Below, one piece after another: positions 16 through 28,402 of a stretch of 32,000 nt of DNA (position 1 is its first letter; each line of letters starts with the position of its first letter). This DNA comes from Xanthomonas campestris pv. campestris str. ATCC 33913 (lineage in GTDB: Bacteria; Pseudomonadota; Gammaproteobacteria; Xanthomonadales; Xanthomonadaceae). The position numbers and the translations under genes are program-made. The notes under the pieces were generated by a model. That model saw nothing but the letters and a program-made list of their open reading frames with translations. It ran no database searches and was not told where the DNA came from. The DNA lies in assembly GCF_000007145.1 (NCBI RefSeq), contig NC_003902.1, positions 3,866,497-3,898,496 on the forward strand, in the 5' to 3' direction.

Positions 16-2454
16 ATGTCCACGCCCGCTTCTTCCCTGCCGCACGCCCTCACCGGCCCGATTGCCGACGCCGCGGTGTCTGCGCGTGGCCGCCGCCTGC
101 TGGCCACCGTGCATGCGCAATGCGCGCAAACCCTGGGCGGCCCGCTGCGACTGACCATTGTCGAGCTGGAGCGCGAACTGCTGCACCAGGCCGAATTCGC
201 CCGTAACAGCCAGCAGCAGGCCGAGGCGTATGCGCAGATGCGCGGGTTGCGCGAGCACGTGGAGCGGTTTCCGCAGGCGTTCCTGCACCACCTGGCGCAG
301 GCGCTGGCCGAACTGCGCGCGCCCAAGGCCGCTGCGCCATCGGCCGACGCGCCTACGCATCCGCAGATGTTGACGCTGGTGGAAGACACCGACATCGATC
401 GCGACATCGTGCTCAACGACATCGCGCGCCGCGAAACCGCGCGACGTGCCGGTGTGTTGCAGTTGCTGGCGCAGCGCTTGGCGGTGGTCGGCGCGGTGCC
501 CGAATTCGAACTGGAAGCCGTGCCGCTAGGCCCCTGGGCGTTGTGCCGGGTGTTGCGCCAGTGCGGTGAGACGCTGGGCCTGAGCCTGGACGGCCAGCTC
601 ACGTTGTATCGCGTGTTCGAACGCCAGGTGATCGAGCGCCTGGGCGATCTGTTCGAGCGCATCAACGCCACGCTGGCCCACGAAGGCATCCTGCCGGGGC
701 TGATCTATCACCCCTATCTGGTCAAGCCAACGCAGGTGCAAAACCGGCGGCCTGCTCCTGCAGCGCAGGGCATGACCAAGGACGTGGGCGCGGGCGCGGG
801 CAAGCGTGCACCGGCGTCACGGCCAGCCACCGGGTGGAGCGGCCAGGCCGCGCCGACCGCCTGGCAGAGCGCCTTGATTGAACCGTCCGCAGCGCCGTCG
901 CCGGCATCGACTGCAGCGCAGGATCAAGCGACCCCACCGGCGCTGGCCGATGCGGCGCAGGCGCTCGGCGGGCTGATGTCGTCCGCGCGCCAGGGCCAGG
1001 CGGGTGCAGCGCAGGCAGGCAATAGGCAAACGCCCTCGTCGTCGCTCGCGCAGCCAGGCGCCATGACCGCCGCAGCGGCGGCCGCCGGACACTCCGCCAG
1101 CGCGCAGCCGCCTGCTACCGCCGTGCCCAAGGCCGCGCTCAACGCGGCACTGGCCAGCCTGCAAGGCGCCATGGCTGCGCCTGCCGCCGCGTCGACCGCT
1201 GCACCGGCCGGCATCGAGGCAATCCAGCGCCAGCTGTTGGACGTACTGCGTACCCAGCACGGGCCGCAGGCTGCGCTGTCGGCGCAGGAGACCGACACCT
1301 TCGACCTGCTCGGCCTGCTCTACGCGCAGATGCAGCGCGAGGTGCGTGAGCAGACCCCGGCGCAGGCGTTGTTGGCCAAGTTGCAGGTACCGGTCGTGCG
1401 CGCCGCGTTGGCCGATGCGCATTTCTTCGTGCGCGACCAGCACCCGGTGCGCGAGTTGCTCAACACCGTGGCCGAGTCCGGCGCCGTGTGGCTGGGCGAA
1501 GATGACGTCGACCCGCAGCTACTGCAGAAGCTGGCCACCGCGGTCGACAGCATCGTGCATACCTACCAGGGCGATGAAGCGGTGTTCGCCGCCGCCAACG
1601 AGGACATCCAGAGCCATCTGCGCACGCTGGCTCGCAAGGCCGAGGTGGCCGAGCGGCGCCATGTGGACGCCGCACGCGGCAAGGAACGGCTGGAATCGGC
1701 CAAGCAGCAAGCGCAGGCGCGTATCGAACAGGTCTGCGAGGACGCGGCGCCGCCTCCGCGCTTTGTGCAATCGCTACTGCGCCAGGCCTGGTCGGATGTG
1801 CTCACGCTCACCCTGCTGCGCCAGGGCGAACAGTCGCCGGAATGGGACGAGCGCCAGGCGCTGACCGCCCGGATCGCCGAGGTCACCTGCCGCACCAAGG
1901 ATCACCCCACCGATACCGCGCTGGGCAGTGAGGTGGAAGCCGCGCTGTTGCAGGTGGGCTACCACGGCGATGAAGCGGCGGCGATTGCGCGCCGCCTTTC
2001 CACGCCCGGCGGCGAGGACGCGCTGACCTCGCGCACCGAGCTGACCGCCAAGCTCAAGGCACGCACGCGCCTGGGCGATCAAGGTGACAGCGCGGCGCGC
2101 AAGCAAAATGCAGTGCCGCGTTCCCCGGAAGAAGAAGCCTGCTACACGCAGCTGCGCAGCCTGCCGTTCGGCATCTGGTTCGAGTTCGTGGTCAACCAGC
2201 AAGGCGATCTGCGCCGGCAGCGGCTGTCCTGGTACAGCCCGATGACCGACCACGCGCTGTTCGTCAATCAACGCGGGCAGAAAGTGGCCGACCATTCGCT
2301 CGACGGCCTGGCACGGCTAATGGCCGCCGGCCAGGTGCGTTTGCTGGTCGAAGAAAAATCGCGGCTGATCGATCGCGCCTGGCACGCCACTGTGCGCACG
2401 CTGCGCACGCTGGCCGGCCAATCCACTGCAGCGGACACAGAGGCGCGCGCATGA
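16..2454 (+). CDS. DUF1631 family protein
   Basis: 812-aa ORF from ATG at 16. The N- and C-terminal regions read like the conserved DUF1631 family (recognised by eye, not searched). Residues ~236-405 are an Ala/Pro/Gln/Ser-rich low-complexity linker. The stop overlaps the next start (ATGA at 2451-2454). Confidence 0.7.
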   Translation: MSTPASSLPHALTGPIADAAVSARGRRLLATVHAQCAQTLGGPLRLTIVELERELLHQAEFARNSQQQAEAYAQMRGLREHVERFPQAFLHHLAQALAELRAPKAAAPSADAPTHPQMLTLVEDTDIDRDIVLNDIARRETARRAGVLQLLAQRLAVVGAVPEFELEAVPLGPWALCRVLRQCGETLGLSLDGQLTLYRVFERQVIERLGDLFERINATLAHEGILPGLIYHPYLVKPTQVQNRRPAPAAQGMTKDVGAGAGKRAPASRPATGWSGQAAPTAWQSALIEPSAAPSPASTAAQDQATPPALADAAQALGGLMSSARQGQAGAAQAGNRQTPSSSLAQPGAMTAAAAAAGHSASAQPPATAVPKAALNAALASLQGAMAAPAAASTAAPAGIEAIQRQLLDVLRTQHGPQAALSAQETDTFDLLGLLYAQMQREVREQTPAQALLAKLQVPVVRAALADAHFFVRDQHPVRELLNTVAESGAVWLGEDDVDPQLLQKLATAVDSIVHTYQGDEAVFAAANEDIQSHLRTLARKAEVAERRHVDAARGKERLESAKQQAQARIEQVCEDAAPPPRFVQSLLRQAWSDVLTLTLLRQGEQSPEWDERQALTARIAEVTCRTKDHPTDTALGSEVEAALLQVGYHGDEAAAIARRLSTPGGEDALTSRTELTAKLKARTRLGDQGDSAARKQNAVPRSPEEEACYTQLRSLPFGIWFEFVVNQQGDLRRQRLSWYSPMTDHALFVNQRGQKVADHSLDGLARLMAAGQVRLLVEEKSRLIDRAWHATVRTLRTLAGQSTAADTEARA

Positions 2455-13741: not shown

Positions 13742-16700
13742 TTAGAAGTCGTAGCTCAGCGTCACCCGGCCCGAGCGCGGCGCCTGGTAGGCGACGACCT
13801 GGTCCCACAGGGGATTGGTGGTGTTGTCGGGCAACTGCGAGAACGGGTAGATGTTGGTCGCGGTCTGCTCGTTGGTGATGTTGAACACATCGAAGCGCAG
13901 CGCCAGCTTGCCGTCGGCGAAGGCCGGCTTGTAAGTCACGCCCATGTCGAGCTGGGCGATCCAGCCCAGGCGGCCCTGCGAGCCCGGCGGCGATGCACTG
14001 CCGGTGCCTGTTTCCGGGTTGTAGCAGTAGTGGTACGGCCCACCGGTGATCGCGCTGCCGCCGTAACCGGCCGGATCGCGACCGCTGTATTCGGTGCCGT
14101 AGTAATTGCCCAGGCAGTTGTGCGGTGCGCCCGAGATCAGGCTGAAGTTAGCCGACGCGCCCCATTGCGGAGTGAACTGATAGAAGCCGAACAGCTTCAA
14201 CTGGTGGCGGTGATCGTTGGATTGATCGCCATTGAAGTGCTCCATCAGCGCTGCGTGGTCCCAGCTCTGCGTGGTCGAGACCGAGGCCTGGCCCTGGTAG
14301 CTGCCCAACGCGCCGCCGGTGCGCCACAGGTCCGAACGCACCTGGCCTTCGGTGGTGCCGTAGCTATGCGACCACACGTAGTTGACCTTGGCGTACCACT
14401 TGCCGTCGAACGGGCGCTCCAGGTTGAACTCCACGGCCGAATAGTTGCGCTTGAACTTCGGGAACCCGGCTGCTTCGCGGCTGACCGAGATTTCATGGAA
14501 CTGGCCATCGGTGCCGATCACGCCCCACTTGTTGGTCTGGCCCGGGTTGATCAGCGAGGCGCCGGCCACCTGCGAGAAATCGATGGTCACGCCCTGTGCG
14601 GCGGCGGCGTCGATCAGCGCGGTGTTGGAGACGTCGTAGTTCTGGTCGTCGATGCCGGCATTGAGGTGGCGGTGCGTGCCGCGCACGCCGAACACCCAAC
14701 CACTGTCCAGCTGCTTGGTCAGGCCCAGGATGATTTCGTCCTGGTTTTCGCCCTCGATGTCCTTGACCACGGCGGTGCGCACATCGGCGATGCGGCCGAA
14801 ACGCGAATTGGCCGAGACCGCCGACCCCAGTTGCTGCGCCAGCACCGGCGTGCCATCGGCGTTGATGCCGCTGTAGGTGTAGTAGGTGTCGGTGGTGGTG
14901 GCCGGCGTGAACAGGCTCACCGCCGACAACGGCAGACCCAGGTAGTAACGGCCGATGTTGCCGAACACCTTCAGGCTGGAATCGCCGTTGACGTCCCAGC
15001 TGAAACCCAGCCGCGGCGCCCAGGCGTTGTCGACTTCGATATAGGGGTCGCCGAACGGGGTGTAGTTGGTGAACTCGTCCTTGCGCAGGCCCAGGCTCAG
15101 CAACAGGTTGTCGGTGACCTGCCACTTGTCTTCGATGTAGTAGGCGCGCTGCTTGGCCTCGTACGAATACAGGCTGGTGTTGATGTTGCGTACCACGTAA
15201 TAGCCACTGGAACCGTTGACCGGATCCACCAGGCCGGGGCTGGGCGCGCCGATGCCGCCGGCTTCGTTGCCGATTGGCTGACCAGGCCGCCAGTCGCCAG
15301 GCCGTTCGGATCGTTGGTCTGCCCATAAGTCCACGCGTAGCCGGGGCCGGACAGTACCGAGCCGACGTCGATGCCTTCGGATTTTTGGTTGTCGATACCG
15401 AAGTTGAGCGTGTGGTGGCCCACGCGCCATTCCAGATTCAGGCGTTGGTTGTCTTTTTTGTCCTCGCGGTCGGGCGAGCTGACCGAGGTCACCAGCTGGT
15501 TGCCGATGCGCGGCGTGCCACCGGTGTAGGCCGGATTCTGCAGCGCGGCGCTATTGATCACCGGGCCGCCGGCCGGGTCGTAGTTGAAAGCGGTCAGCTC
15601 ATCGGGCGTGCGCATCTTGCCGTACAGCGCGGTCACGGTGAGGTTGTCGCCGATATAGCCGGTGTACTTGCCGGTGAACAGCGTCGGACCGGTCTTCCAG
15701 GTGGATTCGTTGGTGAAGTAGCTGCCGCGTTCGCGCGCCAGATAGTCGTACCGATAGATGGCGCCGTTGGTTTCGGCTTCGTCGCTGGCACCGGTCACCT
15801 CGATCAGGTGGTTGTCGGTGATGTTCCAGTCCACCTTGGCGTACCAGCGCTTCTGCTTGTAGTCGTAGTCGGTCAGGCCGCCGGTGCGGCCGTTGTCCGA
15901 GTCGCGGTTGGTCGCGGTGCGGGTGCCGTCGGAATCCACCTGCTCGGCGGCCAGGAAGAAGAACAGCTTGTCCTGGATGATCGGGCCACCGACATAGGCG
16001 CTGTAGGTGGTCTGGTTGGCTTCGGCTTCGCTGGAGGGCTGGTACAGGCCGTTGGCTGCACGCGCATAACGGTATGCGGCATTGTTGACGGTGCCGGCCT
16101 GTGCATCCGGGCGCCAATAGATGTCGCGCTGGTTGGTGCGCAGGCCGTTGGGTTCCCAGATCACCGCGGCGCCGAACTTCCACTCGTTGGTGCCGCGCTT
16201 GCCGATCTGGTTGATCACGCCGCCGTTGGAGCGGCCGAACTGCGCGCCGTAGCCGCCGGTGAAGATTTCCTGCTGGTCGATGGCGCCGTAAGGCAGGGTC
16301 AGGCCGCCCAGGTTGTTGCTGATGGCGGTGGTGTTGAAGCCGTTGAGGTAATAGGCGTTCTCGCTGGCGGCCGAGCCACCGAAGCTGGGCAGCGAGCCGC
16401 CGAGCGGGCCGTTGTCGAAGCCGCCGCTGTTGACCACCACACCCGGCGCCAGCAGCGCGATCGCTTCGGCGGTGCGCCCCAGCGGCAGCTGCGCCAGCTG
16501 TTCGGAAGTGACCACGGTGCGGGTGTCCACGCTGCTGACGTCGATGGTGGCCAGGCTGGCGGCGTTGACGGTGACGCTATCCAGCGTCTGCACGCCGCTC
16601 CCCGCGGCAGCAAACGACACATCGGTATTGGCGCCCACCGTGATGCCCACGTTCTCGCGCGTTTCCACCACCGCGCCATCGCGCTTGACGGTGACCTTGT

Positions 16701-16914
16701 AGGTGCCCAGCGGCAGGTTGCCGGCGGCGTAGCGGCCGCGCGCGTCTACCGGCACTTCGCGGCTGAAGCCGCTGTTGTTTTCGACCAGTACGGTGGTGCC
16801 GACACCTTCGCCGACACTGCCGACGATGCTGCCGGTGGTGGACTGCGCTTGCGCGGCGCCCAGTGCAACGAGCAGTGCCACTGCCAAGGCACGTCTCTGG
16901 ATACTACGGTTCAT
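13742..16914 (-). pseudogene. Oar-like TonB-dependent outer-membrane receptor, interrupted by a frameshift near 15270-15300
   Basis: Two overlapping ORFs in different frames (15097-16914 and 13742-15430) together encode ~1057 codons. Order of parts: signal peptide (MNRSIQRRALAVALLVALGAAQA), a carboxypeptidase-regulatory-like domain (GSIVGSV...YKVTVKRDG), a plug, a long beta-barrel and a terminal ...LSYDF. Sense switches from ...NDPNGLATGGLV (frame A) to GQPIGNEAGGIGAPSPGLVDP (frame B), which needs a 1-nt loss or 2-nt gain. A sequencing error cannot be excluded. Confidence 0.8.
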
Positions 16915-18740: not shown

Positions 18741-21506
18741 ATGCTCAAGCCTGTTGCGTTGCTCACCCCGCGCCCGTCACCGTCGCGCGACCTCCCCCTT
18801 CCCGATTGGCTGCTCGCCAGCAAGCTGGAGCCGCCGTTGCCGCGTGTCGGCGCGGTTGTGCGTGGCGGCCTGCTGGCCGTGCTGGATCAGGCGCAGGCGC
18901 GGCCGCTGACCCTGCTGCTGGCACCGCCCGGCTTCGGCAAGAGCACGCTGCTGACGCAGTGGCATGCGCAGCTGCTGGCGCGCGAGCCGGTCGCCGTGGC
19001 ATGGCTGTCGCTGGATGAAGAAGACGCCGAGCCCGCGCGCTTTCTCGGCCATCTCGCGCTTGCCCTGCAAGGCGCCGGTGCGGACCCTGCCCTGTGCGCG
19101 CCAGCCCTGCACGGCCGCGACCACGATCCGCGCGACGCACTCAATGCGCTGATCCGCGCCCTGCGCGCGGCACCGCGCCGCATCAGCGTGATCCTGGACG
19201 ACTACGACCGCCCCGGCGGCAGCGCGATCGACGAGCTGGTGTTGCGGCTGATCGAACACGCTGGTGGCCGCCTGCACCTGCTGTTGTCCACCCGCCGCGT
19301 CCCTGGCCTGCCACTGGCGCGGCTGGAATTGCAGGCCCAGCTCACGCGCGTCGGCAGCGGCGAACTGGCGCTGGACGAGGACGAAGCACAGGCGCTGCTG
19401 GGTGCGCAGGTGGCGGCCCCGGTGGTGGACGAACTACGCCGCTATACCGAAGGCTGGCCGGTCGCCCTGCATCTGGCCCGGCTGTGGCTGGAAGGCGGCG
19501 CACAACGCCAGCAGGAAGTGGCCACGCGGTTTTCCGGGCGCAACGCACAGATTGCTGCGTATCTGGCCGAACAGGTGGTCAACGACCTGGATGCGGACAC
19601 GCGCGACCTGTTGCTGCGCACCAGCCCGCTGGAGCGGGTCAACGCGGCGCTGGCCGATGCGGTACGCCAGCGCGACGACAGTGGCCGGCTGTTGGCCGGG
19701 CTGGAACATTTCCATGGCTTGCTGATCCCGCTGGATGGCGAGCGCGAATGGTTCCGTTACCACCCGTTGTTCGCAGATTTCCTGCAGCAGTTGCTCGATC
19801 GCGAACATCCCGCCGGCGCGCTGCAGATTCACCAGCGTGCCGCGCGCTGGTTCGGCGAACACCAGTACCTGTCCGACGCGGTCCGTCACGCCTCGCGCGG
19901 CGAATGCGGCGACCTGGCCGCCAGCTACGTGGCACGCGCCGGCACCTGGCAGTTGCTGCTCACCCATGGCACCCATCAGGTGCGCGCGCTGCTGCGCCAC
20001 TTCGACCACCGCACCATCCGCGACACGCCTGCGTTGAATCTCACCCAGGCGCATCTGCACATGAAGCTGGGCGAGTTCAGTCATGCCCGTCTGCTGCTGG
20101 AGCGCTTTCGCGATTTTCCCGCCGCGCTGCGCGAGCCGTTGCAACGCGACTACACCGTGGTGGTGGCAGCACTGCGCGAGCGGCTGGATGAAATCTGCGG
20201 CAACCCGCATGGCCTGACCCAGATCGCGGGCCAGGCGGCCGCGCTGGACGAAGACGACCATCTTGGCCGCGGCATGCTGCTGTGCATCTGCGCCGCCACC
20301 GCACTCGCGCAAGGTGGCTTCGCGCTGGCCGAGCGCTATGCGCATGGCGGGCGCGAGGCCATGGGACGCGGCGGCAGCGAGCTCGGCACCGGTCATGCAC
20401 TGCTGGTGCTGGGGCAGAGTTTTTTCTATCGCGGCCGGCTGGGCGATGCCGAGGCGTGCTATCAGCACGCACTCAACGGCTGCCTGCGTGCGCCGCAGCC
20501 AGACCGCGTCCTGCAGGCCACCGCACACTGCCTGCTGGCGCAATTGCATTACGAACGCGGGCACCACGACGATGCCGCCGACCTGCTGCATCCGGCGCTG
20601 GACATCCTGGAGCAGCACGACGGCAGCACCGACGTGCTGGCCGCCGGCTACGACACCGCGCTGGGGCTGGAGCGCCTGCGCGATCACAGTGGCCGCAGCG
20701 CGGCCGCTTTGCTGGAACACGTGGAGCAGATTGCACACGGGCGCAAGCTCGCGCGCCTGTCCGAACTGGCCGCCGCCTGGCGCTTGATGGTGATGCTGGA
20801 GCACCCGGGCAACGCCGCCATCGATGTGCTGATTGCACGCACCGGCGGCGAATCCGGGCTGGCGCATACCCTGCGCTCGCCGCACCGCTGGCGCGACCGA
20901 GCAGCGATGGGGTTCGCGCTAGCGCGCTGGCATCGCCTGGCCGGCCGCAGCAGCGCGGCGCTGACCATCCTGGGCCAGATCGAACAGGCCTGCCTTGCCA
21001 GCGACAACCTCTGCCACCTGGCACGCACCCGCGCACGCATCGCCCTGGTACTGCAACAGCGTGGTGAACTGGCTGCGGCATTGCCGTATCTGTACAGCGC
21101 GCTGGACCACGTTGCGCTGACCCGCAGCTGGCAAGCCATTGCAGAACTGGGGCTGCCGGCAAAAGCGATGCTGCGCTCGCTACGCCAGCACGACCCGCAG
21201 ACCGTGGCCGGCACCACCCGCGCGCTCACCATCCAGGCCTTGCTGGACAGGCTCAGTGGCGACGACGATCCGGCCAACGATCTGTTTAGCGAACGCGAAC
21301 TGGAAGTGCTTGCGCAACTGGCGCGCGGCTATTCCAACAAGCAGATCGCACGCTGCCTGCACCTGTCGGAAAACACCGTCAAATTTCACTTGAAGAACGT
21401 GTACCGCAAGCTCGATGCACGCAGCCGCGAAGGTGCACTGGCGCAGGCCTTGCAGCGCGGCTTGTTGCGCGAGATGGACCCACCAACAGGGCCAACCACA
21501 CTCTGA
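18741..21506 (+). CDS. Large ATP-binding LuxR-family regulator (MalT/LAL type)
   Basis: ~921 aa from ATG 18741; the ORF also opens at 18681. It has an N-terminal Walker A (LLLAPPGFGKSTLL), a long helical/TPR-like middle and a C-terminal LuxR HTH (SERELEVLAQLARGYSNKQIARCLHLSENTVKFHLKNVYRKLDARSR). Confidence 0.85.
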   Translation: MLKPVALLTPRPSPSRDLPLPDWLLASKLEPPLPRVGAVVRGGLLAVLDQAQARPLTLLLAPPGFGKSTLLTQWHAQLLAREPVAVAWLSLDEEDAEPARFLGHLALALQGAGADPALCAPALHGRDHDPRDALNALIRALRAAPRRISVILDDYDRPGGSAIDELVLRLIEHAGGRLHLLLSTRRVPGLPLARLELQAQLTRVGSGELALDEDEAQALLGAQVAAPVVDELRRYTEGWPVALHLARLWLEGGAQRQQEVATRFSGRNAQIAAYLAEQVVNDLDADTRDLLLRTSPLERVNAALADAVRQRDDSGRLLAGLEHFHGLLIPLDGEREWFRYHPLFADFLQQLLDREHPAGALQIHQRAARWFGEHQYLSDAVRHASRGECGDLAASYVARAGTWQLLLTHGTHQVRALLRHFDHRTIRDTPALNLTQAHLHMKLGEFSHARLLLERFRDFPAALREPLQRDYTVVVAALRERLDEICGNPHGLTQIAGQAAALDEDDHLGRGMLLCICAATALAQGGFALAERYAHGGREAMGRGGSELGTGHALLVLGQSFFYRGRLGDAEACYQHALNGCLRAPQPDRVLQATAHCLLAQLHYERGHHDDAADLLHPALDILEQHDGSTDVLAAGYDTALGLERLRDHSGRSAAALLEHVEQIAHGRKLARLSELAAAWRLMVMLEHPGNAAIDVLIARTGGESGLAHTLRSPHRWRDRAAMGFALARWHRLAGRSSAALTILGQIEQACLASDNLCHLARTRARIALVLQQRGELAAALPYLYSALDHVALTRSWQAIAELGLPAKAMLRSLRQHDPQTVAGTTRALTIQALLDRLSGDDDPANDLFSERELEVLAQLARGYSNKQIARCLHLSENTVKFHLKNVYRKLDARSREGALAQALQRGLLREMDPPTGPTTL

Positions 21507-21513
21507 GTTCAGC

Positions 21514-21577
21514 CGCGCATCACAGCCGTGGCTGGATGCGCGACAGGCGTAGAGCGATGCAGCGCGTGCGCTGCATC
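21514..21577. terminator. Two tandem GC hairpins between the convergent regulator and azurin genes
   Basis: The first is cgcgcatc-a-cagcc-gt-ggctg-gatgcgcg (21514-21542). The second is gatgcagcgc-gt-gcgctgcatc (21556-21577), which overlaps the azurin stop. Neither has a U-tract. Confidence 0.35.
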
Positions 21578-22025
21578 ACCCGAAGCGCAGCGTACCCTTC
21601 ATCATGGCCCAGTGGCCGGGGAACGAGCAGAAAAACGTATACGCGCCACCCTTGCTCAACTTGCTGGTCGGGAAGGTCACCGTGGCGGTTTCGCCAGCGC
21701 CGATCACCTTGGTGTGCGCGATCACGCGCGGGTCGGCCTTGGGCAGGTAGCTGTCGGCGATGGTGGAGCGCACGCCGGCGTTGGCCACGGCCTGGAAATC
21801 GTCGCTCTTGGTCAGCACCCAGTTGTGCCCCATCACCGTGGCGGCAAGTTTGCCGGAGTGCTTGAGCGTCACGGCGACTTCGGTGCAATCGGGAGCGATC
21901 GTGATCGCGCTCTGGTCGAATTTCATCTGGTCGGTACCGGTGATGGTCACCGCACAGGTCTTCGCCCACGCTGATGGTGCCAATGACACCAGCGCAAGCA
22001 CGGCAATGGTCGAAAGCAGCTTCAA
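21576..22025 (-). CDS. azu: Azurin (blue copper electron carrier), Sec signal peptide
   Basis: 149 aa if started at TTG 22025, with AGGAG 7 nt upstream. The signal is (M)KLLSTIAVLALVSLAPSAWA. The mature part aligns by eye with P. aeruginosa azurin (DQMKFD, VMGHNWVL, RVIAHTK, FFCSFPGHWAMMKGTL, which carries the Cys/His/Met copper ligands). Confidence 0.9.
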   Translation of the reverse strand: MKLLSTIAVLALVSLAPSAWAKTCAVTITGTDQMKFDQSAITIAPDCTEVAVTLKHSGKLAATVMGHNWVLTKSDDFQAVANAGVRSTIADSYLPKADPRVIAHTKVIGAGETATVTFPTSKLSKGGAYTFFCSFPGHWAMMKGTLRFG

Positions 22026-22187: not shown

Positions 22188-23387
22188 CTAGGCGTAGCGG
22201 AAGAAGGCATCCATCGGCGTCTGTACGCTTGCGGTGGCGTCGGGCAGCGGCAACGGGCCACGTTTGCCGGCCATGACCTGCACGAAGGCCTGCTTGAAGC
22301 GCGCCATCTCCTCGGGCGTGCCCACCGTGATCCGCGACCAGGTGGGCCACACCGGCCAGCTGCGGCCGATAAATACACCGAAGGTGGCCATGGCGTCCTT
22401 GAAGCCGGCCGCAGGCTGTTTTACATCGACCATGAAGCAGTTGCTTTCCGAAGCGGTGCAGGCATAGCCCTGCTTGGTGAGGAAGTCGATGACATCGGCG
22501 CGGGTGGCCGCAGTGCGTGCGCGCCGTTGCGGCACCAGCGTGGCATCGCGCAGGCTGGCCAGGCCCGCCGCGGCCGCGGTCACCGGCAGGCTGTTGACGC
22601 TGTAGAACATCAGCTTGGCCAGCAGGTCCGGGCGTGCTGCCGCATAGCCCAGGCGGATGCCGGCCATGCCGTAGAGCTTGGAGAAGGTGCGCAGTACCAC
22701 CACGTCTTCTCCCGCGGCCACCATGTCCACCACGCTGCGGGTGCTCTGCGCGAAATGGATGTAGGCCTCGTCCACCACCAAAATGCTGTCCTTGGGCTTG
22801 TGCGCCAGCGCGTAGTCCAGATCCTTGCGTGCGGTCACTGAGCCAGTGGGATTATTGGGATTGCAGATGTAGATCACGCCAGCGTTGGCATCGGCTGCGC
22901 ACATCGCCTGCACGTCGTGCGAGAAGTCCTTGCGCAACGGCACCTTGACCAGCTTGGCGCCATTGCGGGACGCAGCGCGCCAGCCGGATTCGTAGGTGGG
23001 GTCGGCGCTGACCAGCGCGGCACTGGGCGAGGTGAAGGCCAGCATCGTGTAGTCCAGCGGCTCGGTAGAACCGGCATAGGCCATCAGGTGGTTCACCGGC
23101 AGCTTGAGCTCAGCGGCCAGGGTGGTCATCAGTTCCATCTGCAGCTCACGCAGATATCGCCCACCCTGCGGCGCAATCTGGGTGATTGCCTTGATCGCCG
23201 CAGCACACGGGCCATCGGGAAACTCGTTGGAGCCGATCATCACCGGCGCCATTGCGCCCGCTGCGGCAGGCGCGATGGCGGCCGAGCGTTCGGCGGCGCT
23301 GGCCAGCAGCGGCAGGGCGCCCCCGGCGGCACCGGCAAACAGGGCGGAATCACGCAGGAACCTGCGGCGCGACAGAGCGGTATGCAT
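22188..23387 (-). CDS. Class I/II PLP-dependent aminotransferase (HisC-like) with twin-arginine signal peptide
   Basis: 399 aa from ATG 23387, with GGAGG 7 nt upstream. The N-terminus MHTALSRRRFLRDSALFAGAAGGALPLLASA fits the Tat consensus S/T-R-R-x-F-L. The PLP lysine context is RTFSKLYGMAGIRLGY. Confidence 0.85.
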   Translation of the reverse strand: MHTALSRRRFLRDSALFAGAAGGALPLLASAAERSAAIAPAAAGAMAPVMIGSNEFPDGPCAAAIKAITQIAPQGGRYLRELQMELMTTLAAELKLPVNHLMAYAGSTEPLDYTMLAFTSPSAALVSADPTYESGWRAASRNGAKLVKVPLRKDFSHDVQAMCAADANAGVIYICNPNNPTGSVTARKDLDYALAHKPKDSILVVDEAYIHFAQSTRSVVDMVAAGEDVVVLRTFSKLYGMAGIRLGYAAARPDLLAKLMFYSVNSLPVTAAAAGLASLRDATLVPQRRARTAATRADVIDFLTKQGYACTASESNCFMVDVKQPAAGFKDAMATFGVFIGRSWPVWPTWSRITVGTPEEMARFKQAFVQVMAGKRGPLPLPDATASVQTPMDAFFRYA

Positions 23388-23419
23388 GGTGAACCTCCAG
23401 CAAGATGACGAAGACGAAC

Positions 23420-23923
23420 TCAAGGACGCACGGCAACCACTTCGATCTCTACCCGGTACAACGGGTTGCCCAGCGCGGCGATCTGAAACGCCGAGCGCGC
23501 CGGCAGATTGGGTTGCTCCTTGGTGCCGAAATACTGCCGGTAGCCCTCCATGAATCCGTTGAAATCCATCTTGCCGTCCATGGCCGGATCGCCGACCAGG
23601 AACACCTGCATCTTCACCACATCGCCCATCCCCAGGCCCAGCGATTCCAGCTGCTGCTTGATCTGCGCAAGCACGCTGATGGTCTGCGCATTGGTATCGC
23701 CGTAGGCGGCGGCCGAGCCCTTCGGCGCTGTGGTATCCACCACCGCCGGCACCTTGCCGCTGACATACACGGTGGCCTTGCCGGCCGGTACCTCCACGGC
23801 CGCGGCAATCGGGAAATCGCTATTGGGAATCTTGTGGCGGATCACCTCGGCGGCCTGTGCGGCGGCAACACTTCCACACCACAGCACGGCGGCGGTGGCG
23901 GCAATCACGGCGGGACGGAACAT
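23420..23923 (-). CDS. RidA/YjgF family imine deaminase with Sec signal peptide
   Basis: 167 aa from ATG 23923, with AAGGAG 6 nt upstream. The signal is MFRPAVIAATAAVLWCGSVAAAQA. The C-terminal PARSAFQIAAL...RVEIEVVAV matches the E. coli RidA PARSCVEVA...KIEIEAIAV region, including the Arg needed for imine hydrolysis. Confidence 0.85.
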   Translation of the reverse strand: MFRPAVIAATAAVLWCGSVAAAQAAEVIRHKIPNSDFPIAAAVEVPAGKATVYVSGKVPAVVDTTAPKGSAAAYGDTNAQTISVLAQIKQQLESLGLGMGDVVKMQVFLVGDPAMDGKMDFNGFMEGYRQYFGTKEQPNLPARSAFQIAALGNPLYRVEIEVVAVRP

Positions 23924-23948: not shown

Positions 23949-24374
23949 TCAGTGGCGCAGCAGTTTGACGTCGTCGACAGTAACCACTTCGGCGTGGTCA
24001 TTACCGAAATGAGTTCGCACATAGCTCACCACTTCGGCCACCTGGCGGTCGGTGAGCATGTCACCGAAACCCGGCATGCCGGCGTGGCCGTCGAGCACCA
24101 TCATGGTGACGTACGGCGCGGCGGCGAGTTTGGGGTTGCCGGCCAGCGCCGGATATTCGCCCGCCCCCTGCACCCCAGTGCCGCTGGGCATGTGACAGCC
24201 CTGGCACACGGCCTGGTAGACATGCTGGCCGGAGGCGGTGGCAAAGCCTTTCTGCGGATACAGCGCGGTGGCATCGGAACTCTGCGCCTGTGCATCGTGC
24301 AGGCCAGGCGGCAGCAGCAATGCACCGATGCACAGCACCGCTGCCGCAGCGAACACACGGGGGAACAGCGTCAT
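23949..24374 (-). CDS. Monoheme class I cytochrome c with signal peptide
   Basis: 141 aa from ATG 24374. The signal is MTLFPRVFAAAAVLCIGALLLPPGLHDAQA. There is a single CQGCH heme site and a distal Met candidate in HAGMPGFG. The start overlaps the stop of the upstream flavoenzyme gene (ATGA at 24374-24371). Confidence 0.85.
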   Translation of the reverse strand: MTLFPRVFAAAAVLCIGALLLPPGLHDAQAQSSDATALYPQKGFATASGQHVYQAVCQGCHMPSGTGVQGAGEYPALAGNPKLAAAPYVTMMVLDGHAGMPGFGDMLTDRQVAEVVSYVRTHFGNDHAEVVTVDDVKLLRH

Positions 24375-25978
24375 GCGCGAGCTCCTTGGGCAAGCACCTT
24401 GCGATGCAGGCGGCCGACCACGTCGTGCGCGGACAAGATCGCGCCCTCCTGCCAGGCCGGGATGTAAGACACGTGCTCGCCGGCCAGCGCCAGGCGGCCA
24501 TCGATCTGGCACAGCGGCGCGTAATGCTCGGCGCGCGCGGCCTCGCTCCACATGCCAAAGCACCCATGCGTAAACGGCACACGATGCCAGCCCACTGCAA
24601 TGCCGGTTTCGAATTCGCGTGGATATTGCGGATGCAATTGCGTGCCGTATTCGACCGCCTTGCGCACACGCTGCTCCGGGGACATCGAGGTGAACTGGTA
24701 GGCGTCCAAACCCCAGACGTAGGCGCCCAGCAACACACCCTTGCCGGGGCTGTGATAGCCGGTACTGGGATAGCTGATCAGCGTGATCGGCAGATCCGTG
24801 TAGCTGATGCCGCCGTAGATCACCTCGTCCTCTTCCCAGAAGCGGCGCTTGAACTGCAGCCCCACCTTCACCGACGCCGCATACGGCACCTTGCCGATCG
24901 CCGTGGTCATCGCATCGCTGGCAGTGGCCGGGATGCGGCTCAAGACCGAGAGGGGGATCGTGCAGATGCACCAGTCGGCACTGGCCACCTGTTCGGCGCC
25001 ACCGCGCGCGGCATCCTGCCAGGACACGCGCACGCCGCTGCCGTCCTGATCAATCCTGGTGACCTTGGCGTTATAGGTGATGGCATTGCCGAGCTGGCGG
25101 GCAAACGCCTTGCCGATCTGGTCCATGCCGCCCACCGGCTGGAACATGGTGGTCTGCATTTCGTAGTTGTTACCAGCCGCCAGCGTGGTCCACAGCCGTG
25201 ACCGCAGCACGTCCTGCACGCTGAAGGGATCGGAAAACTCCGGTTTGCCGGACAAACCGCCACCCGGGTAGCGCGCAAAGCCGCGGCGCTCGCTGCTGTC
25301 CTTGCCCTTGACGTAGCCAAAGCGTTTGTCGAGCGCGCCCCAGGTGCGCAGCGATTCGAGCAGGATCTGCTGATCCTCAGTGCTCACCAGGCTGTCCAGT
25401 GCGTGTTGCTGGGTGCACTTGGCCAGCAGTTCGGAGACATGGCCCTTGTAGTCCGCATCGATGGCGCGGAAGCGCTGCGGCTTGCCATCGAAGCCGTGCT
25501 GGCTGTGCAGCAAGGCGTTGTAGTTGACCTGATTGAATGCCTCCAGCGCCACGCCGAACTGCTTGCAGTAACTCAGCACCGCGCGGTGGTGATGCGGGAT
25601 GCGCCACGGACCGGGATTGAGGTAATGGCCCTCATCGAACTGGCAGTGCTGCGCCGCGCCACCGAGTTCGGTGTAACGGTCGCCGCCGCGCAGTGTCCAG
25701 TTCCGGCCGCCCGGGCGGTCGTTGTATTCCAGCACCTGTACGCGGTACCCCGCCTTGCGCAATTCGAACGCCGCCGTCATGCCCGCCAGGCCGGCACCGA
25801 GAATCAGCACCGATGCCCCCTTGGCGTCGCCATCGAGTTGCAGCGGCCCGGTAAAGGTGGATTCGGCCGCCATGCCCAGGCTGCTCATCGCCTGATACAT
25901 CATCGCGCCGCCCGCGGTCATGCCGATCCGTGCCAGCAGCTGCCGGCGTGTCATTGCCCCAGTGTGTTTGCCTTGCAT
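24371..25978 (-). CDS. Flavin amine-oxidase-fold enzyme with twin-arginine signal peptide
   Basis: 535 aa from ATG 25978; TTG 25981 and ATG 25954 are alternatives. The Tat signal is TRRQLLARIGMTAGGAMMYQAMSSLGMA. It has an FAD dinucleotide fold (VLILGAGLAGMTAAFELRKAGYRVQVLEYNDRPGGR) and length and architecture typical of the monoamine / L-amino-acid oxidase family. Confidence 0.85.
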   Translation of the reverse strand: MQGKHTGAMTRRQLLARIGMTAGGAMMYQAMSSLGMAAESTFTGPLQLDGDAKGASVLILGAGLAGMTAAFELRKAGYRVQVLEYNDRPGGRNWTLRGGDRYTELGGAAQHCQFDEGHYLNPGPWRIPHHHRAVLSYCKQFGVALEAFNQVNYNALLHSQHGFDGKPQRFRAIDADYKGHVSELLAKCTQQHALDSLVSTEDQQILLESLRTWGALDKRFGYVKGKDSSERRGFARYPGGGLSGKPEFSDPFSVQDVLRSRLWTTLAAGNNYEMQTTMFQPVGGMDQIGKAFARQLGNAITYNAKVTRIDQDGSGVRVSWQDAARGGAEQVASADWCICTIPLSVLSRIPATASDAMTTAIGKVPYAASVKVGLQFKRRFWEEDEVIYGGISYTDLPITLISYPSTGYHSPGKGVLLGAYVWGLDAYQFTSMSPEQRVRKAVEYGTQLHPQYPREFETGIAVGWHRVPFTHGCFGMWSEAARAEHYAPLCQIDGRLALAGEHVSYIPAWQEGAILSAHDVVGRLHRKVLAQGARA

Positions 25979-26110: not shown

Positions 26111-28402
26111 TCAAAATTTGTACGAAAGACTCGCAAACACCTGCCGCGGTGCAATCAGCTGATACGAGCCGGAACTTTCATTCGGGAACACCGCGCCGAT
26201 CGCGTCGTCCTTGTCGAACAGGTTGTAGACCGACAGTTGCAGCCGGCCGCCGGCCAGAAACCCGTCACTGCCGCCCTGATAGCCGACACTGCCATTGACA
26301 ATGAAGGTGGCATCCACCTGATCGGTATTGAGCGTGTCGCCGTAGCGCTTGCCGGTATATTTGGTATCCAGGTTGGCGAAGAAGTTCTCGCCCTCCCAGC
26401 CGCCATTGACGCTGAACATCACCTTCGGCGAATCCGGCACCTCGTTGCCTTCCACCTGCACCAGGCTGCCGCTGACCGGTCCGAAATAGTTGTCCTGGAA
26501 TTCGGATTTGTTCCAGGTCAGCGAGGCACCCAGCCGCCAGCCCGGCGCCGGCTTCCACATGCCGGAGACTTCTGCGCCATAGGTCTGCACGTCGCCGACG
26601 TTGGCATACACCGTGGGCGCCACCACCAACGGGTCCGGGTCGGTCAACGCGATGATGCGGTTTTCGTAATCGATCTTGTAGGCGGCGATGTAACCGCTCC
26701 ACTGGCTGGATTCGGCGCGAATGCCGATGTCGATATTGGTGGATTCTTCCGGTGCGATATCCGGATTGAACGCGCCCGAGGTCAGTGCCAGCCGCGGTGC
26801 GGAGCTGAAGTTCTCCGCATAGTTGGCGAACACCTGCACGCCATCGGCCAGCTGGAAACTGGCACCCACCTGCGGCTGGAACCAGTCGCTGTTCTTGATG
26901 GTGACATCGCGACGCACGCCGACATTGAAATCGTCGAGATTAGCGATGCCGTTGTAGTCGCGTTTGACATCCAGCCCCTTGGCGCCGAGTTCCAGCGTGA
27001 GCCGGTCATCGAGCAGGCGCAGTGTGTCCTTGATGTAGAGCTGCTTCACTTCGGTGGAGAAGTGGTTGTCGTAGTAGATGACGATCGGCAAGGCGCTTTT
27101 CAGCAACGCACCGGTGGCCGGGTCCAGGTTGTACAGCGGGCGCACCTGATCGAAATCGTAGTTCTCATACCAGGCACCGACTTCGAGTTTGTTGTGCTCG
27201 GTTTCCCACGACACCGCGGTGGTCGCGCCATAGCGGTCGCCGCCCATGATTTCCTCGCGCCGGGTCATCGCACCAACGCGGGTCACGTTGCCGGCGGCAT
27301 CCACAATCTGTGGGTCGTTGATGGCGATATCGGTGCGCCCTGGCGTGCCGGCGATGGCGTCGTTGTACAGGCCCGTCGCCGTGCTCGGCGGAGTTCCGCC
27401 AACGCCATAGCCGTGCTTGTTCTCGTAGTAGCCGGTGAAGGTGAAGCCGATCGCATCGTTGAACAGGAAATCGCCGTGCAGGCTGAGCAAGGAATCGCGG
27501 CGGCCGTTCTGCCACTCGCTGTAGTGCTCGGCGTCCACTTCGGGATTGCCGGTGATGCGTTCGTGCAGGTCCCACGACACCGAGCCATCGGAGTTGTACG
27601 ACTGCACGTCGTAGTCCTTGCGGTTGTTGTAGATCCAGCCCAGCGTCAGGCTGCCCGCGTCCCAGGCCTGGCGGATCTTGGCTTCGAAGTGATCGCTCTT
27701 CTGCGTGGCCGGCTCCATGTCCCACACCCCGCCCTGCGTGCGCGAGGCCGAGACGTAGGCACTCGGGCCACCGTCCCACCACTGCGGCGTATCCAGCCGC
27801 ACGAAGCTGCGCACCAGATCGTCCGAGCCAATGGTCTGGGTGAGGTTGCCACTCCAGGTATCGCCGCCCTTCGGTGGCAGGCTGGTGTAGCGGATCGCCC
27901 CGCCGAGAGCGTGGTAAGAGGGCTGGGTGACATCGCCCGAGCCAGCAGATACGGTGACATCGAGCAGGTTTTCGCTGGACACATAGCGGGTGATCGGCCC
28001 GCCTTCGCGGGTGTCGAAGGTTTCGATCGGAATCCCATCCAGGGTCACGCCGATCTGGTTGGCAGAAAACCCGCGGATGGTCATCGAATCACCGAACTCG
28101 TACAGACCGAACGGGTCGGTGGTCTGCACATTCACGCCCGGCAGGCTGGCCAGCAATTGCTGCGGGGCCACACCGGGCACCTGCGCCTGGATTTCCGCCA
28201 CGGAGATGGACGCGGTGGTGCGGGTGGAGCCGGTGCCCACCACACTGACGGCATCGAGCGTGCGTGCTTCCTGTGCAATCGCTGGCAGGCTGGAAGCACC
28301 CAGTAACAGTGCCATGGAGGCCGCGGCAGGGCGGCGGGTGAGCGTGGTGAGAGCGGCGGCGACCGAGGTCGCCAGATGGTCGGTCTTCAAGCGCTTGCGC
28401 AT
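26111..28402 (-). CDS. TonB-dependent outer-membrane receptor
   Basis: 763 aa from ATG 28402. A signal peptide ends in ...SSLPAIAQE. A TonB-box-like TLDAVSVVG is present, followed by plug and barrel motifs and the terminal ...SLSYKF. Confidence 0.9.
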   Translation of the reverse strand: MRKRLKTDHLATSVAAALTTLTRRPAAASMALLLGASSLPAIAQEARTLDAVSVVGTGSTRTTASISVAEIQAQVPGVAPQQLLASLPGVNVQTTDPFGLYEFGDSMTIRGFSANQIGVTLDGIPIETFDTREGGPITRYVSSENLLDVTVSAGSGDVTQPSYHALGGAIRYTSLPPKGGDTWSGNLTQTIGSDDLVRSFVRLDTPQWWDGGPSAYVSASRTQGGVWDMEPATQKSDHFEAKIRQAWDAGSLTLGWIYNNRKDYDVQSYNSDGSVSWDLHERITGNPEVDAEHYSEWQNGRRDSLLSLHGDFLFNDAIGFTFTGYYENKHGYGVGGTPPSTATGLYNDAIAGTPGRTDIAINDPQIVDAAGNVTRVGAMTRREEIMGGDRYGATTAVSWETEHNKLEVGAWYENYDFDQVRPLYNLDPATGALLKSALPIVIYYDNHFSTEVKQLYIKDTLRLLDDRLTLELGAKGLDVKRDYNGIANLDDFNVGVRRDVTIKNSDWFQPQVGASFQLADGVQVFANYAENFSSAPRLALTSGAFNPDIAPEESTNIDIGIRAESSQWSGYIAAYKIDYENRIIALTDPDPLVVAPTVYANVGDVQTYGAEVSGMWKPAPGWRLGASLTWNKSEFQDNYFGPVSGSLVQVEGNEVPDSPKVMFSVNGGWEGENFFANLDTKYTGKRYGDTLNTDQVDATFIVNGSVGYQGGSDGFLAGGRLQLSVYNLFDKDDAIGAVFPNESSGSYQLIAPRQVFASLSYKF

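What the first reader, a model, noticed from the sequence alone, without database searches (positions are those of the whole stretch)
22188..23387. Twin-arginine-exported PLP aminotransferase
The best start (ATG 23387, with GGAGG 7 nt upstream) gives MHTALSRRRFLRDSALFAGAAGGALPLLASAAE. This is a textbook Tat signal, followed by a HisC-like aminotransferase with the SKxxGxAGxRxGY lysine motif. Periplasmic aminotransferases are uncommon, because transamination normally depends on cytoplasmic amino and keto acid pools. Export by Tat implies PLP is loaded before transport. Its partner substrates in the periplasm are unknown.
Basis: partly seen in the sequence, partly recalled or inferred. Interest (0 to 1): 0.6.

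Follow-up and report, generated by a model that had tools for sequence, protein, structure and literature searches.

The report
Periplasmic transaminase in amino-acid oxidation operon
This Xanthomonas gene encodes a vitamin-B6 enzyme that is exported, already folded, to the space between the two cell membranes; it is a cousin of the known Pseudomonas enzyme PtaA, and its neighbours suggest it works in an exported pathway that strips nitrogen and electrons from amino compounds taken up from outside.

Summary
ATG 23387 has a ribosome-binding site and starts a 399-aa HisC-fold PLP aminotransferase with a twin-arginine signal, kept in 111 of 114 homologs (the other three are truncated). The kind is known: the protein passes NCBIfam subfamily PRK09105, which also holds Pseudomonas PtaA, a proven Tat-exported, PLP-loaded periplasmic transaminase. 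It is 44% identical to PtaA but fails the PtaA-specific cut-off, and this genome (Xanthomonas campestris) cannot make pyoverdine. The oxidase-cytochrome-Rid core is the published lao-cccA-ridA cluster. Related transaminases sit beside that oxidase in three separate lineages. In four Xanthomonas genomes the transaminase is lost or broken together with the receptor, in three of them with the oxidase intact. Best model (inferred, untested): it deaminates a receptor-imported amino compound, using 2-oxo acids made next door by oxidase plus Rid, with electrons going to cytochrome c and azurin. The substrate is unknown. New member of a known kind; interest 0.37.

The parts
22188..23387 (-). PtaA-like Tat-exported PLP aminotransferase, 399 aa (NCBIfam PRK09105 subfamily)
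   Evidence: PRK09105 590 bits (cut-off 444); PtaA equivalog 396 (cut-off 500); hisC 209 (cut-off 277)
23394..23398 (-). GGAGG ribosome-binding site, 6 nt before the ATG; a GGAG core is kept in all 24 genus orthologs read
23292..23387 (-). Predicted Tat signal peptide, residues 1-32; cleavage inferred after Ala31 or Ala32
   Evidence: residues 22-38 have pLDDT under 50 in the model
23352..23372 (-). Twin-arginine motif S6-R12
22644..22682 (-). PLP-lysine motif S236-Y248 (K237 = predicted Schiff-base lysine)
   Evidence: alignments to 3LY1 and 4R2N
22191..22271 (-). C-terminal tail (residues 373-399), Pro-rich then a short helix; present in this clade, absent from PtaA and from the stand-alone paralog; role unknown
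23420..23923 (-). Rid-family imine hydrolase with a Sec-type signal peptide and the catalytic Arg motif
   Evidence: role of Rid with amino acid oxidases: PMC4433059
23949..24374 (-). Monoheme cytochrome c with signal peptide (CxxCH); start overlaps the oxidase stop by 4 nt
24371..25954 (-). FAD-dependent L-amino acid oxidase/dehydrogenase with a twin-arginine N-terminus; closest solved structure R. opacus LAAO 2JAE
   Evidence: E 7e-95, next hit 2e-43
26111..28402 (-). TonB-dependent receptor, first gene of the cluster; ligand unknown
   Evidence: no solved-structure relative at E 1e-8
21576..22025 (-). Azurin (TTG start), with His/Cys/His/Met copper ligands
   Evidence: TIGR02695 188 bits, cut-off 105
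18741..21506 (+). MalT-like LuxR regulator, convergent; conserved beside this clade of transaminases, candidate regulator

Best explanation
The protein folds and binds PLP in the cytoplasm, is exported by Tat, and works as a dimeric transaminase in the periplasm, like PtaA. It is the accessory arm of an exported nitrogen- and electron-scavenging operon. Step 1 (inferred): the TonB receptor brings in an amino compound that carries a free alpha-amino acid group, probably a bulky one. Step 2 (inferred from PtaA and from the missing N-terminal lid): the transaminase removes that amino group and is left in the PMP form. Step 3 (precedent in other species): the neighbouring flavoenzyme oxidises free L-amino acids to imino acids, and the exported Rid hydrolyses them to 2-oxo acids plus ammonium. 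Step 4 (inferred): these 2-oxo acids accept the amino group and regenerate PLP; the amino acid formed can be oxidised again. Step 5 (precedent for the cytochrome, inference for azurin): electrons pass to cytochrome c and azurin and on to respiration. Net result: oxidative deamination in the periplasm of substrates that the oxidase alone cannot handle. Shown here: sequence, family, fold prediction, gene order and patterns of loss. Not shown: export, activity, substrate, co-transcription.
For: All six co-oriented genes carry export signals, with gaps of 156, -4, 25, 32 and 162 nt. The order oxidase-cytochrome-Rid-transaminase-azurin is kept in 10 loci from other genera at 67-75% identity. In this clade 19 of 20 loci have a TonB receptor within 4.5 kb and 13 of 20 have the oxidase; the PtaA/paralog group has 1 of 14 and 0 of 14. 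Relatives lie next to the same oxidase in Acidobacteria-type loci, a Caulobacteraceae MAG (L091) and Bacteroidota (L134, L242). One clade for the oxidase-linked transaminases is rejected (AU p 5e-86), and the Xanthomonadaceae oxidases nest among oxidases that have no transaminase neighbour, so the pairing arose more than once or was lost many times. Asymmetric loss in the genus: G171, G158 and G162 lost or broke receptor and transaminase while oxidase-cytochrome-Rid-azurin stayed intact; G182 lost receptor, oxidase, cytochrome and Rid and its transaminase is frameshifted; G164, G175 and G176 gave no match for either the oxidase or this copy. Precedents: PtaA (PMC6206403); lao-cccA-ridA (PMC5053998); Rid hydrolyses oxidase-made imines (PMC4433059); Tat signal plus adjacent cytochrome c marks cytochrome-using dehydrogenases (PMC12224317).
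Against: Most of the subfamily does without the oxidase: only 6 of 71 loci with long flanks have it nearby, PtaA and the paralog group never do, and G114, G421, G487 and G578 encode a relative but gave no oxidase match. Thirteen of 13 close oxidases from other proteobacterial families have no transaminase beside them. So neither partner needs the other in general. L084 shows receptor-transaminase and oxidase-cytochrome-Rid-azurin as two separate blocks, so the operon may be two merged modules. The genomes compared are related, the loci were sampled through one partner, and frameshifts in draft genomes may be assembly errors. No substrate, expression or biochemical data exist here.
Confidence: 0.5

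Rival explanations
1. Receptor-coupled tailoring enzyme, independent of the oxidase. The transaminase modifies one specific imported or recycled molecule (a siderophore, metallophore or gamma-linked amino acid conjugate), as PtaA does with pyoverdine, and takes its amino acceptor from 2-oxo acids that leak from the cytoplasm. The oxidase block is a separate module that happens to share the island and its regulator.
For: The receptor is the more faithful neighbour (19 of 20 against 13 of 20). Receptor and transaminase decay together in G158, G162 and G171. Receptor-transaminase-regulator loci without the oxidase exist (L049, L078). PtaA works without a linked oxidase.
Against: The oxidase pairing recurs in distant lineages, and in Pedobacter the two genes lie 21 nt apart with no receptor detected nearby. 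The genome has a single condensation domain, so no pyoverdine-type siderophore of its own.
Confidence: 0.27
2. Broad-range periplasmic amino acid transaminase that rebalances the oxidase products. It converts oxidase-made 2-oxo acids (for example indole-3-pyruvate or phenylpyruvate) back to amino acids, or makes them from aromatic amino acids in parallel, and so tunes auxin precursor or keto acid levels in the plant.
For: The lao cluster is needed for tryptophan to indole-3-pyruvate to IAA conversion in Gluconacetobacter (PMC5053998). Type I-beta aminotransferases often accept aromatic amino acids (PMC4703992).
Against: The pocket positions are Thr108, Tyr132, Ser134 and Asn265, small and polar, unlike the hydrophobic Val/Phe/Leu/Phe set of the aromatic enzyme. 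The family is common in soil Acidobacteria and Bacteroidota with no plant link. Free amino acids do not obviously need a TonB receptor (own knowledge).
Confidence: 0.15
3. The PLP chemistry is not transamination (for example decarboxylation, as in CobD or PvdN, or an elimination that makes imines for Rid).
For: The fold also holds CobD decarboxylases, and Rid genes cluster with imine-forming PLP enzymes.
Against: It is 44% identical to a true PtaA transaminase over 367 residues, with both carboxylate-binding arginines kept; CobD scores 148 bits against a cut-off of 291.
Confidence: 0.05
4. A cytoplasmic second HisC translated from a downstream start; the twin-arginine stretch is incidental.
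For: Some sources name homologs histidinol-phosphate aminotransferase.
Against: The genome has a true hisC in its his operon. The hisC model is under its cut-off. The lid tyrosine of HisC has no counterpart. The signal region is conserved at protein level and the downstream starts lack an RBS.
Confidence: 0.03

Closest known systems
PtaA, periplasmic transaminase A of Pseudomonas (Ringel et al. 2017, read through the review PMC6206403)
   Same: Same NCBIfam subfamily PRK09105 (two true PtaA proteins score 502 and 504 against the cut-off 444); 44% identity; twin-arginine signal; HisC-like fold without the N-terminal lid; same PLP and arginine residues.
   Different: Under the PtaA equivalog cut-off (396 against 500); a separate, well-supported clade with a C-terminal tail; no pyoverdine synthetases in the genome; sits in a receptor-oxidase operon, whereas the two PtaA loci have neither neighbour; three of four compared pocket positions differ.
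lao-cccA-ridA cluster of Gluconacetobacter diazotrophicus (PMC5053998)
   Same: Same three genes in the same order, Tat signal on the oxidase; the paper states that the arrangement is conserved in Xanthomonas and Caulobacter.
   Different: Here extended by a TonB receptor, the transaminase and azurin; the searched passages of the paper name no transaminase in the cluster. Direct sequence comparison with GDI2456 was not made.
Cytochrome c-using dehydrogenases of the flavoprotein amine oxidoreductase family (NicA2, Pnao; PMC12224317)
   Same: Both genetic marks are present: Tat signal on the flavoenzyme and an adjacent cytochrome c with a signal peptide.
   Different: The flavoenzyme here is closest to R. 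opacus LAAO; the paper's text does not mention Xanthomonas, Rid, azurin or aminotransferases; electron acceptor untested.
PvdN of Pseudomonas
   Same: Tat-exported, PLP loaded in the cytoplasm, periplasmic.
   Different: PvdN catalyses an oxidative decarboxylation and is a class V type enzyme (own knowledge); this protein is class I/II.
HisC and aromatic aminotransferases, type I-beta (E. coli HisC, M. tuberculosis Rv1600 and Rv3772; PDB 3LY1)
   Same: Fold, PLP site and the two C-domain arginines.
   Different: 24-30% identity; cytoplasmic enzymes with a tyrosine-bearing lid, which the signal peptide and a flexible linker replace here.

Membership tests
NCBIfam PRK09105 subfamily (PtaA-like) | HMM score over the curated cut-off | tested here: met
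   590 bits against 444
PtaA-like periplasmic transaminases | N-terminal twin-arginine signal, conserved in the family | tested here: met
PtaA-like periplasmic transaminases | Type I-beta PLP fold with Schiff-base lysine and PLP-binding residues | tested here: met
PtaA-like periplasmic transaminases | TatC-dependent periplasmic location with PLP bound; transaminase activity | not testable with these tools
   tatC is present; needs fractionation and an enzyme assay
PtaA proper (pyoverdine transaminase, NF051461) | Equivalog HMM cut-off | tested here: not met
   396 bits against 500; true PtaA scores 682-685
PtaA proper (pyoverdine transaminase, NF051461) | Host makes pyoverdine (multimodular NRPS) | tested here: not met
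   one condensation domain in a complete genome
HisC (TIGR01141) | Equivalog cut-off | tested here: not met
   209 bits against 277
HisC (TIGR01141) | N-terminal lid with tyrosine and Asn/Tyr/Met/Tyr pocket | tested here: not met
   no lid tyrosine; Thr108/Tyr132/Ser134/Asn265 by alignment
Aromatic aminotransferase (Rv3772 type) | Hydrophobic Val/Phe/Leu/Phe pocket | tested here: not met
   (position 132 is Tyr in 38 and Phe in 19 of 57 homologs)
lao-cccA-ridA cluster | Tat oxidase, cytochrome c and Rid adjacent in this order | tested here: met
lao-cccA-ridA cluster | Needed for tryptophan to IAA conversion | not testable with these tools
   shown only in G. diazotrophicus
Cytochrome c-using flavoprotein amine dehydrogenases | Flavin reoxidised faster by the adjacent cytochrome c than by oxygen | not testable with these tools
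   genetic marks met; kinetics needed

The most novel reading that the evidence does not exclude
The operon is a self-contained periplasmic transdeamination loop. An exported transaminase is recharged by 2-oxo acids that an exported cytochrome-linked L-amino acid dehydrogenase and an exported Rid make on the spot, so that a receptor-imported amino compound is oxidatively deaminated without entering the cytoplasm. The pairing was assembled independently in Xanthomonadaceae, Acidobacteria and Bacteroidota. I found no description of such a loop in the papers I could search.
Probability: 0.35. Interest if true: 0.62.

Novelty: new member of a known kind. Interest (0 to 1): 0.37.

Why it matters
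The PtaA review (PMC6206403) leaves two points open: how PLP is regenerated in the periplasm, and what PtaA-like enzymes do in species without pyoverdine. This locus puts a candidate source of amino acceptors in the same operon and names the receptor whose ligand is the likely substrate, so both questions can be tested with three purified proteins. It would also describe a nitrogen-scavenging route kept by most Xanthomonas species, and correct the common hisC label on this widespread exported subfamily. Periplasmic PLP transamination itself is not new.

Tried and rejected
The primary PtaA paper is not held; PtaA facts come from reviews. Literature searches for this locus found nothing: locus tags guessed from memory, Xanthomonas Tat substrates, flavin monoamine oxidase in Xanthomonas. 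No sigma-70 promoter was found, and terminator-like sites were at chance level (5 found, 4.2 expected); the intergenic stretches on both sides of the core did not fold better than shuffles, so operon borders rest on spacing and synteny. My strict twin-arginine pattern scored only 77 of 130 distant loci; reading the misses showed that nearly all carry RR motifs with other flanking residues, the clear exception being an ordinary HisC-like outgroup, L160. The upstream TTG at 23423 was rejected as start: it overlaps the Rid stop and homologs begin at the ATG. The class III aminotransferases nearby are hemL and argD, housekeeping genes flanking the island, not partners. The receptor has no solved relative that hints at a ligand. 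The ESM Atlas gave only generic aminotransferase clusters. The careful tree did not finish; the quick tree and an AU test on 26 rows were used. No complex prediction was run, because no binding is claimed.

Full report
Observation. The frame 22188-23387 on the minus strand gives 399 residues without a stop. A GGAGG lies 6 nt before the ATG; the Met codons at residues 46 and 50 have no such site. The N-terminus has the Tat consensus at S6-R12, a Gly/Ala-rich h-region and an A-x-A site near residue 32. This is not chance. The strict motif starts only 5 of 1,839 likely genes in this genome. It is present in 111 of 114 homologs, the rest being truncated. Both arginines are invariant in a 57-row alignment, and in 31 orthologs the motif codons change only synonymously while the free position varies. 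tatC is in the genome. The closest named homologs, at 97-98% identity, are from Xanthomonas campestris.

The protein. Pfam gives class I/II aminotransferase. NCBIfam gives subfamily PRK09105 over its cut-off (590 against 444), then pyoverdine transaminase PtaA (396 against 500) and hisC (209 against 277), both under theirs. Two true Pseudomonas PtaA proteins also pass PRK09105, and one is 44% identical to this protein, so they share a subfamily. The model (pLDDT 89) matches type I-beta enzymes, best 3LY1 with TM 0.79. The Schiff-base lysine K237, D206, Y209, Y78 and the arginines R342 and R352 are invariant. In HisC and in the aromatic aminotransferase a lid of about 40 residues with a tyrosine closes the site, and four pocket residues set specificity (PMC4703992). 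Here the lid region is the signal peptide and a disordered linker, and the four positions are Thr108, Tyr132, Ser134 and Asn265. I infer an open, polar site that suits a bulky substrate, as with PtaA, whose substrate is a gamma-linked glutamate with free alpha-amino and alpha-carboxyl groups. A true hisC sits in the his operon. The genome has one condensation domain and so no pyoverdine. A second subfamily member, 50% identical and also with a twin-arginine start, stands alone upstream of the DNA ligase-like gene; in the trees it falls near PtaA, with moderate support.

The neighbourhood. Six genes run in one direction: TonB receptor, flavoenzyme, cytochrome c, Rid, the transaminase and azurin, with gaps of 156, -4, 25, 32 and 162 nt, each with an export signal by inspection. 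The flavoenzyme is closest to R. opacus L-amino acid oxidase (E 7e-95). Oxidase, cytochrome and Rid form the lao-cccA-ridA cluster that is needed for IAA synthesis in G. diazotrophicus and is reported as conserved in Xanthomonas (PMC5053998). Rid proteins hydrolyse the imines that such oxidases make (PMC4433059), and a Tat signal plus an adjacent cytochrome c marks cytochrome-using dehydrogenases (PMC12224317).

Comparative evidence. The five-gene order is kept in 10 loci from other genera of the family. In the clade of this protein, 19 of 20 loci have a receptor within 4.5 kb and 13 of 20 the oxidase; the PtaA/paralog group has 1 of 14 and 0 of 14; a random spot of this genome scores 5%, an underestimate because the seeds found only 27 receptors. 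Outside the family, relatives lie beside the same oxidase in Silvibacterium and other Acidobacteria-type loci, a Caulobacteraceae MAG, and Pedobacter plus one metagenome contig, where the transaminase is only about 34% identical. One clade for the oxidase-linked enzymes is rejected, and the Xanthomonadaceae oxidases nest among 14 oxidases with no transaminase neighbour. Within the genus the loss is one-sided: three genomes lost or broke receptor and transaminase and kept oxidase, cytochrome, Rid and azurin; one lost receptor and oxidase block and has a frameshifted transaminase; three gave no match for the oxidase or for this copy. Against this, the link is not general. Only 6 of 71 well-flanked loci of the wider family have the oxidase, 13 close oxidases from other families have no transaminase, four genomes have a relative but no oxidase match, and L084 shows the two halves as separate blocks. 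The genomes are related and the sampling went through one partner at a time.

Mechanism. The pattern fits an accessory enzyme that serves the receptor and benefits from the oxidase. It takes the amino group from an imported compound; 2-oxo acids from oxidase plus Rid regenerate PLP; the amino acid formed is oxidised again; ammonium is released and electrons go to cytochrome c and azurin. Export and transaminase chemistry rest on PtaA and are likely (my estimate: about 0.9). Coupling to the oxidase rests on gene context alone (about 0.5), and a closed loop on one imported substrate is less sure (0.35). The main rival is a receptor-linked tailoring role that does not need the oxidase.

Verdict. 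The feature is real and correctly described, but Tat-exported PLP transaminases are known through PtaA and PvdN, and the whole subfamily has the signal. This is a new member of a known kind, not PtaA itself. The added value is the recurrent pairing with an exported 2-oxo acid generator, which makes the open question of the periplasmic amino acceptor testable. Interest 0.37.

Noticed in passing
window 13742-16914 (-): A second TonB-dependent receptor is split into two overlapping frames near 15262-15325; an intact 1058-aa ortholog is in L083. Pseudogene or sequencing error.
   Followed up: partly
G000:C1:1831065-1832208 (-), L002: Second PRK09105 member with a twin-arginine start, standing alone between a zipA-like and a DNA ligase-like gene; this position is shared by about 10 loci of the family. 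It is kept in most of the genus without pyoverdine, and its function is unknown.
   Followed up: partly
L251:4916-6924 (G173): A second oxidase-cytochrome c pair (82% and 68% identity) lies just upstream of the full operon, without Rid or transaminase.
   Followed up: no
L038-L047, L083, L084: The receptor at the head of the cluster is of two different types (about 760 aa and about 920 aa) in different genera, while the downstream genes stay the same; the ligand may differ.
   Followed up: partly
L134:8387-12193 (Pedobacter westerhofensis): Oxidase and a distant Tat transaminase are 21 nt apart and followed closely by a 333-aa gene with a weak Hint-module match; no cytochrome c or Rid was detected.
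   Followed up: partly
L099, L101, L102, L108, L182, L199, L201, L203, L204, L207, L209, L220: An Acidobacteria clade of this subfamily, with a longer n-region before the RR motif, is repeatedly followed by a sulfate-permease-family transporter (13 loci in the cluster).
   Followed up: no
window 21440-21575: Strong hairpin between the convergent azurin and MalT-like regulator genes (z -2.3); possible terminator.
   Followed up: no
window 16-2454 (+): 812-aa ORF with a partial match to the PacR family model (209 bits against a cut-off of 1200); not examined.
   Followed up: no
P0068, P0069, P0072, P0083, P0090 and relatives: A subgroup (18 of 57 aligned rows) replaces the conserved Glu after N54 by Thr and has longer C-terminal tails; possibly a different specificity.
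   Followed up: no
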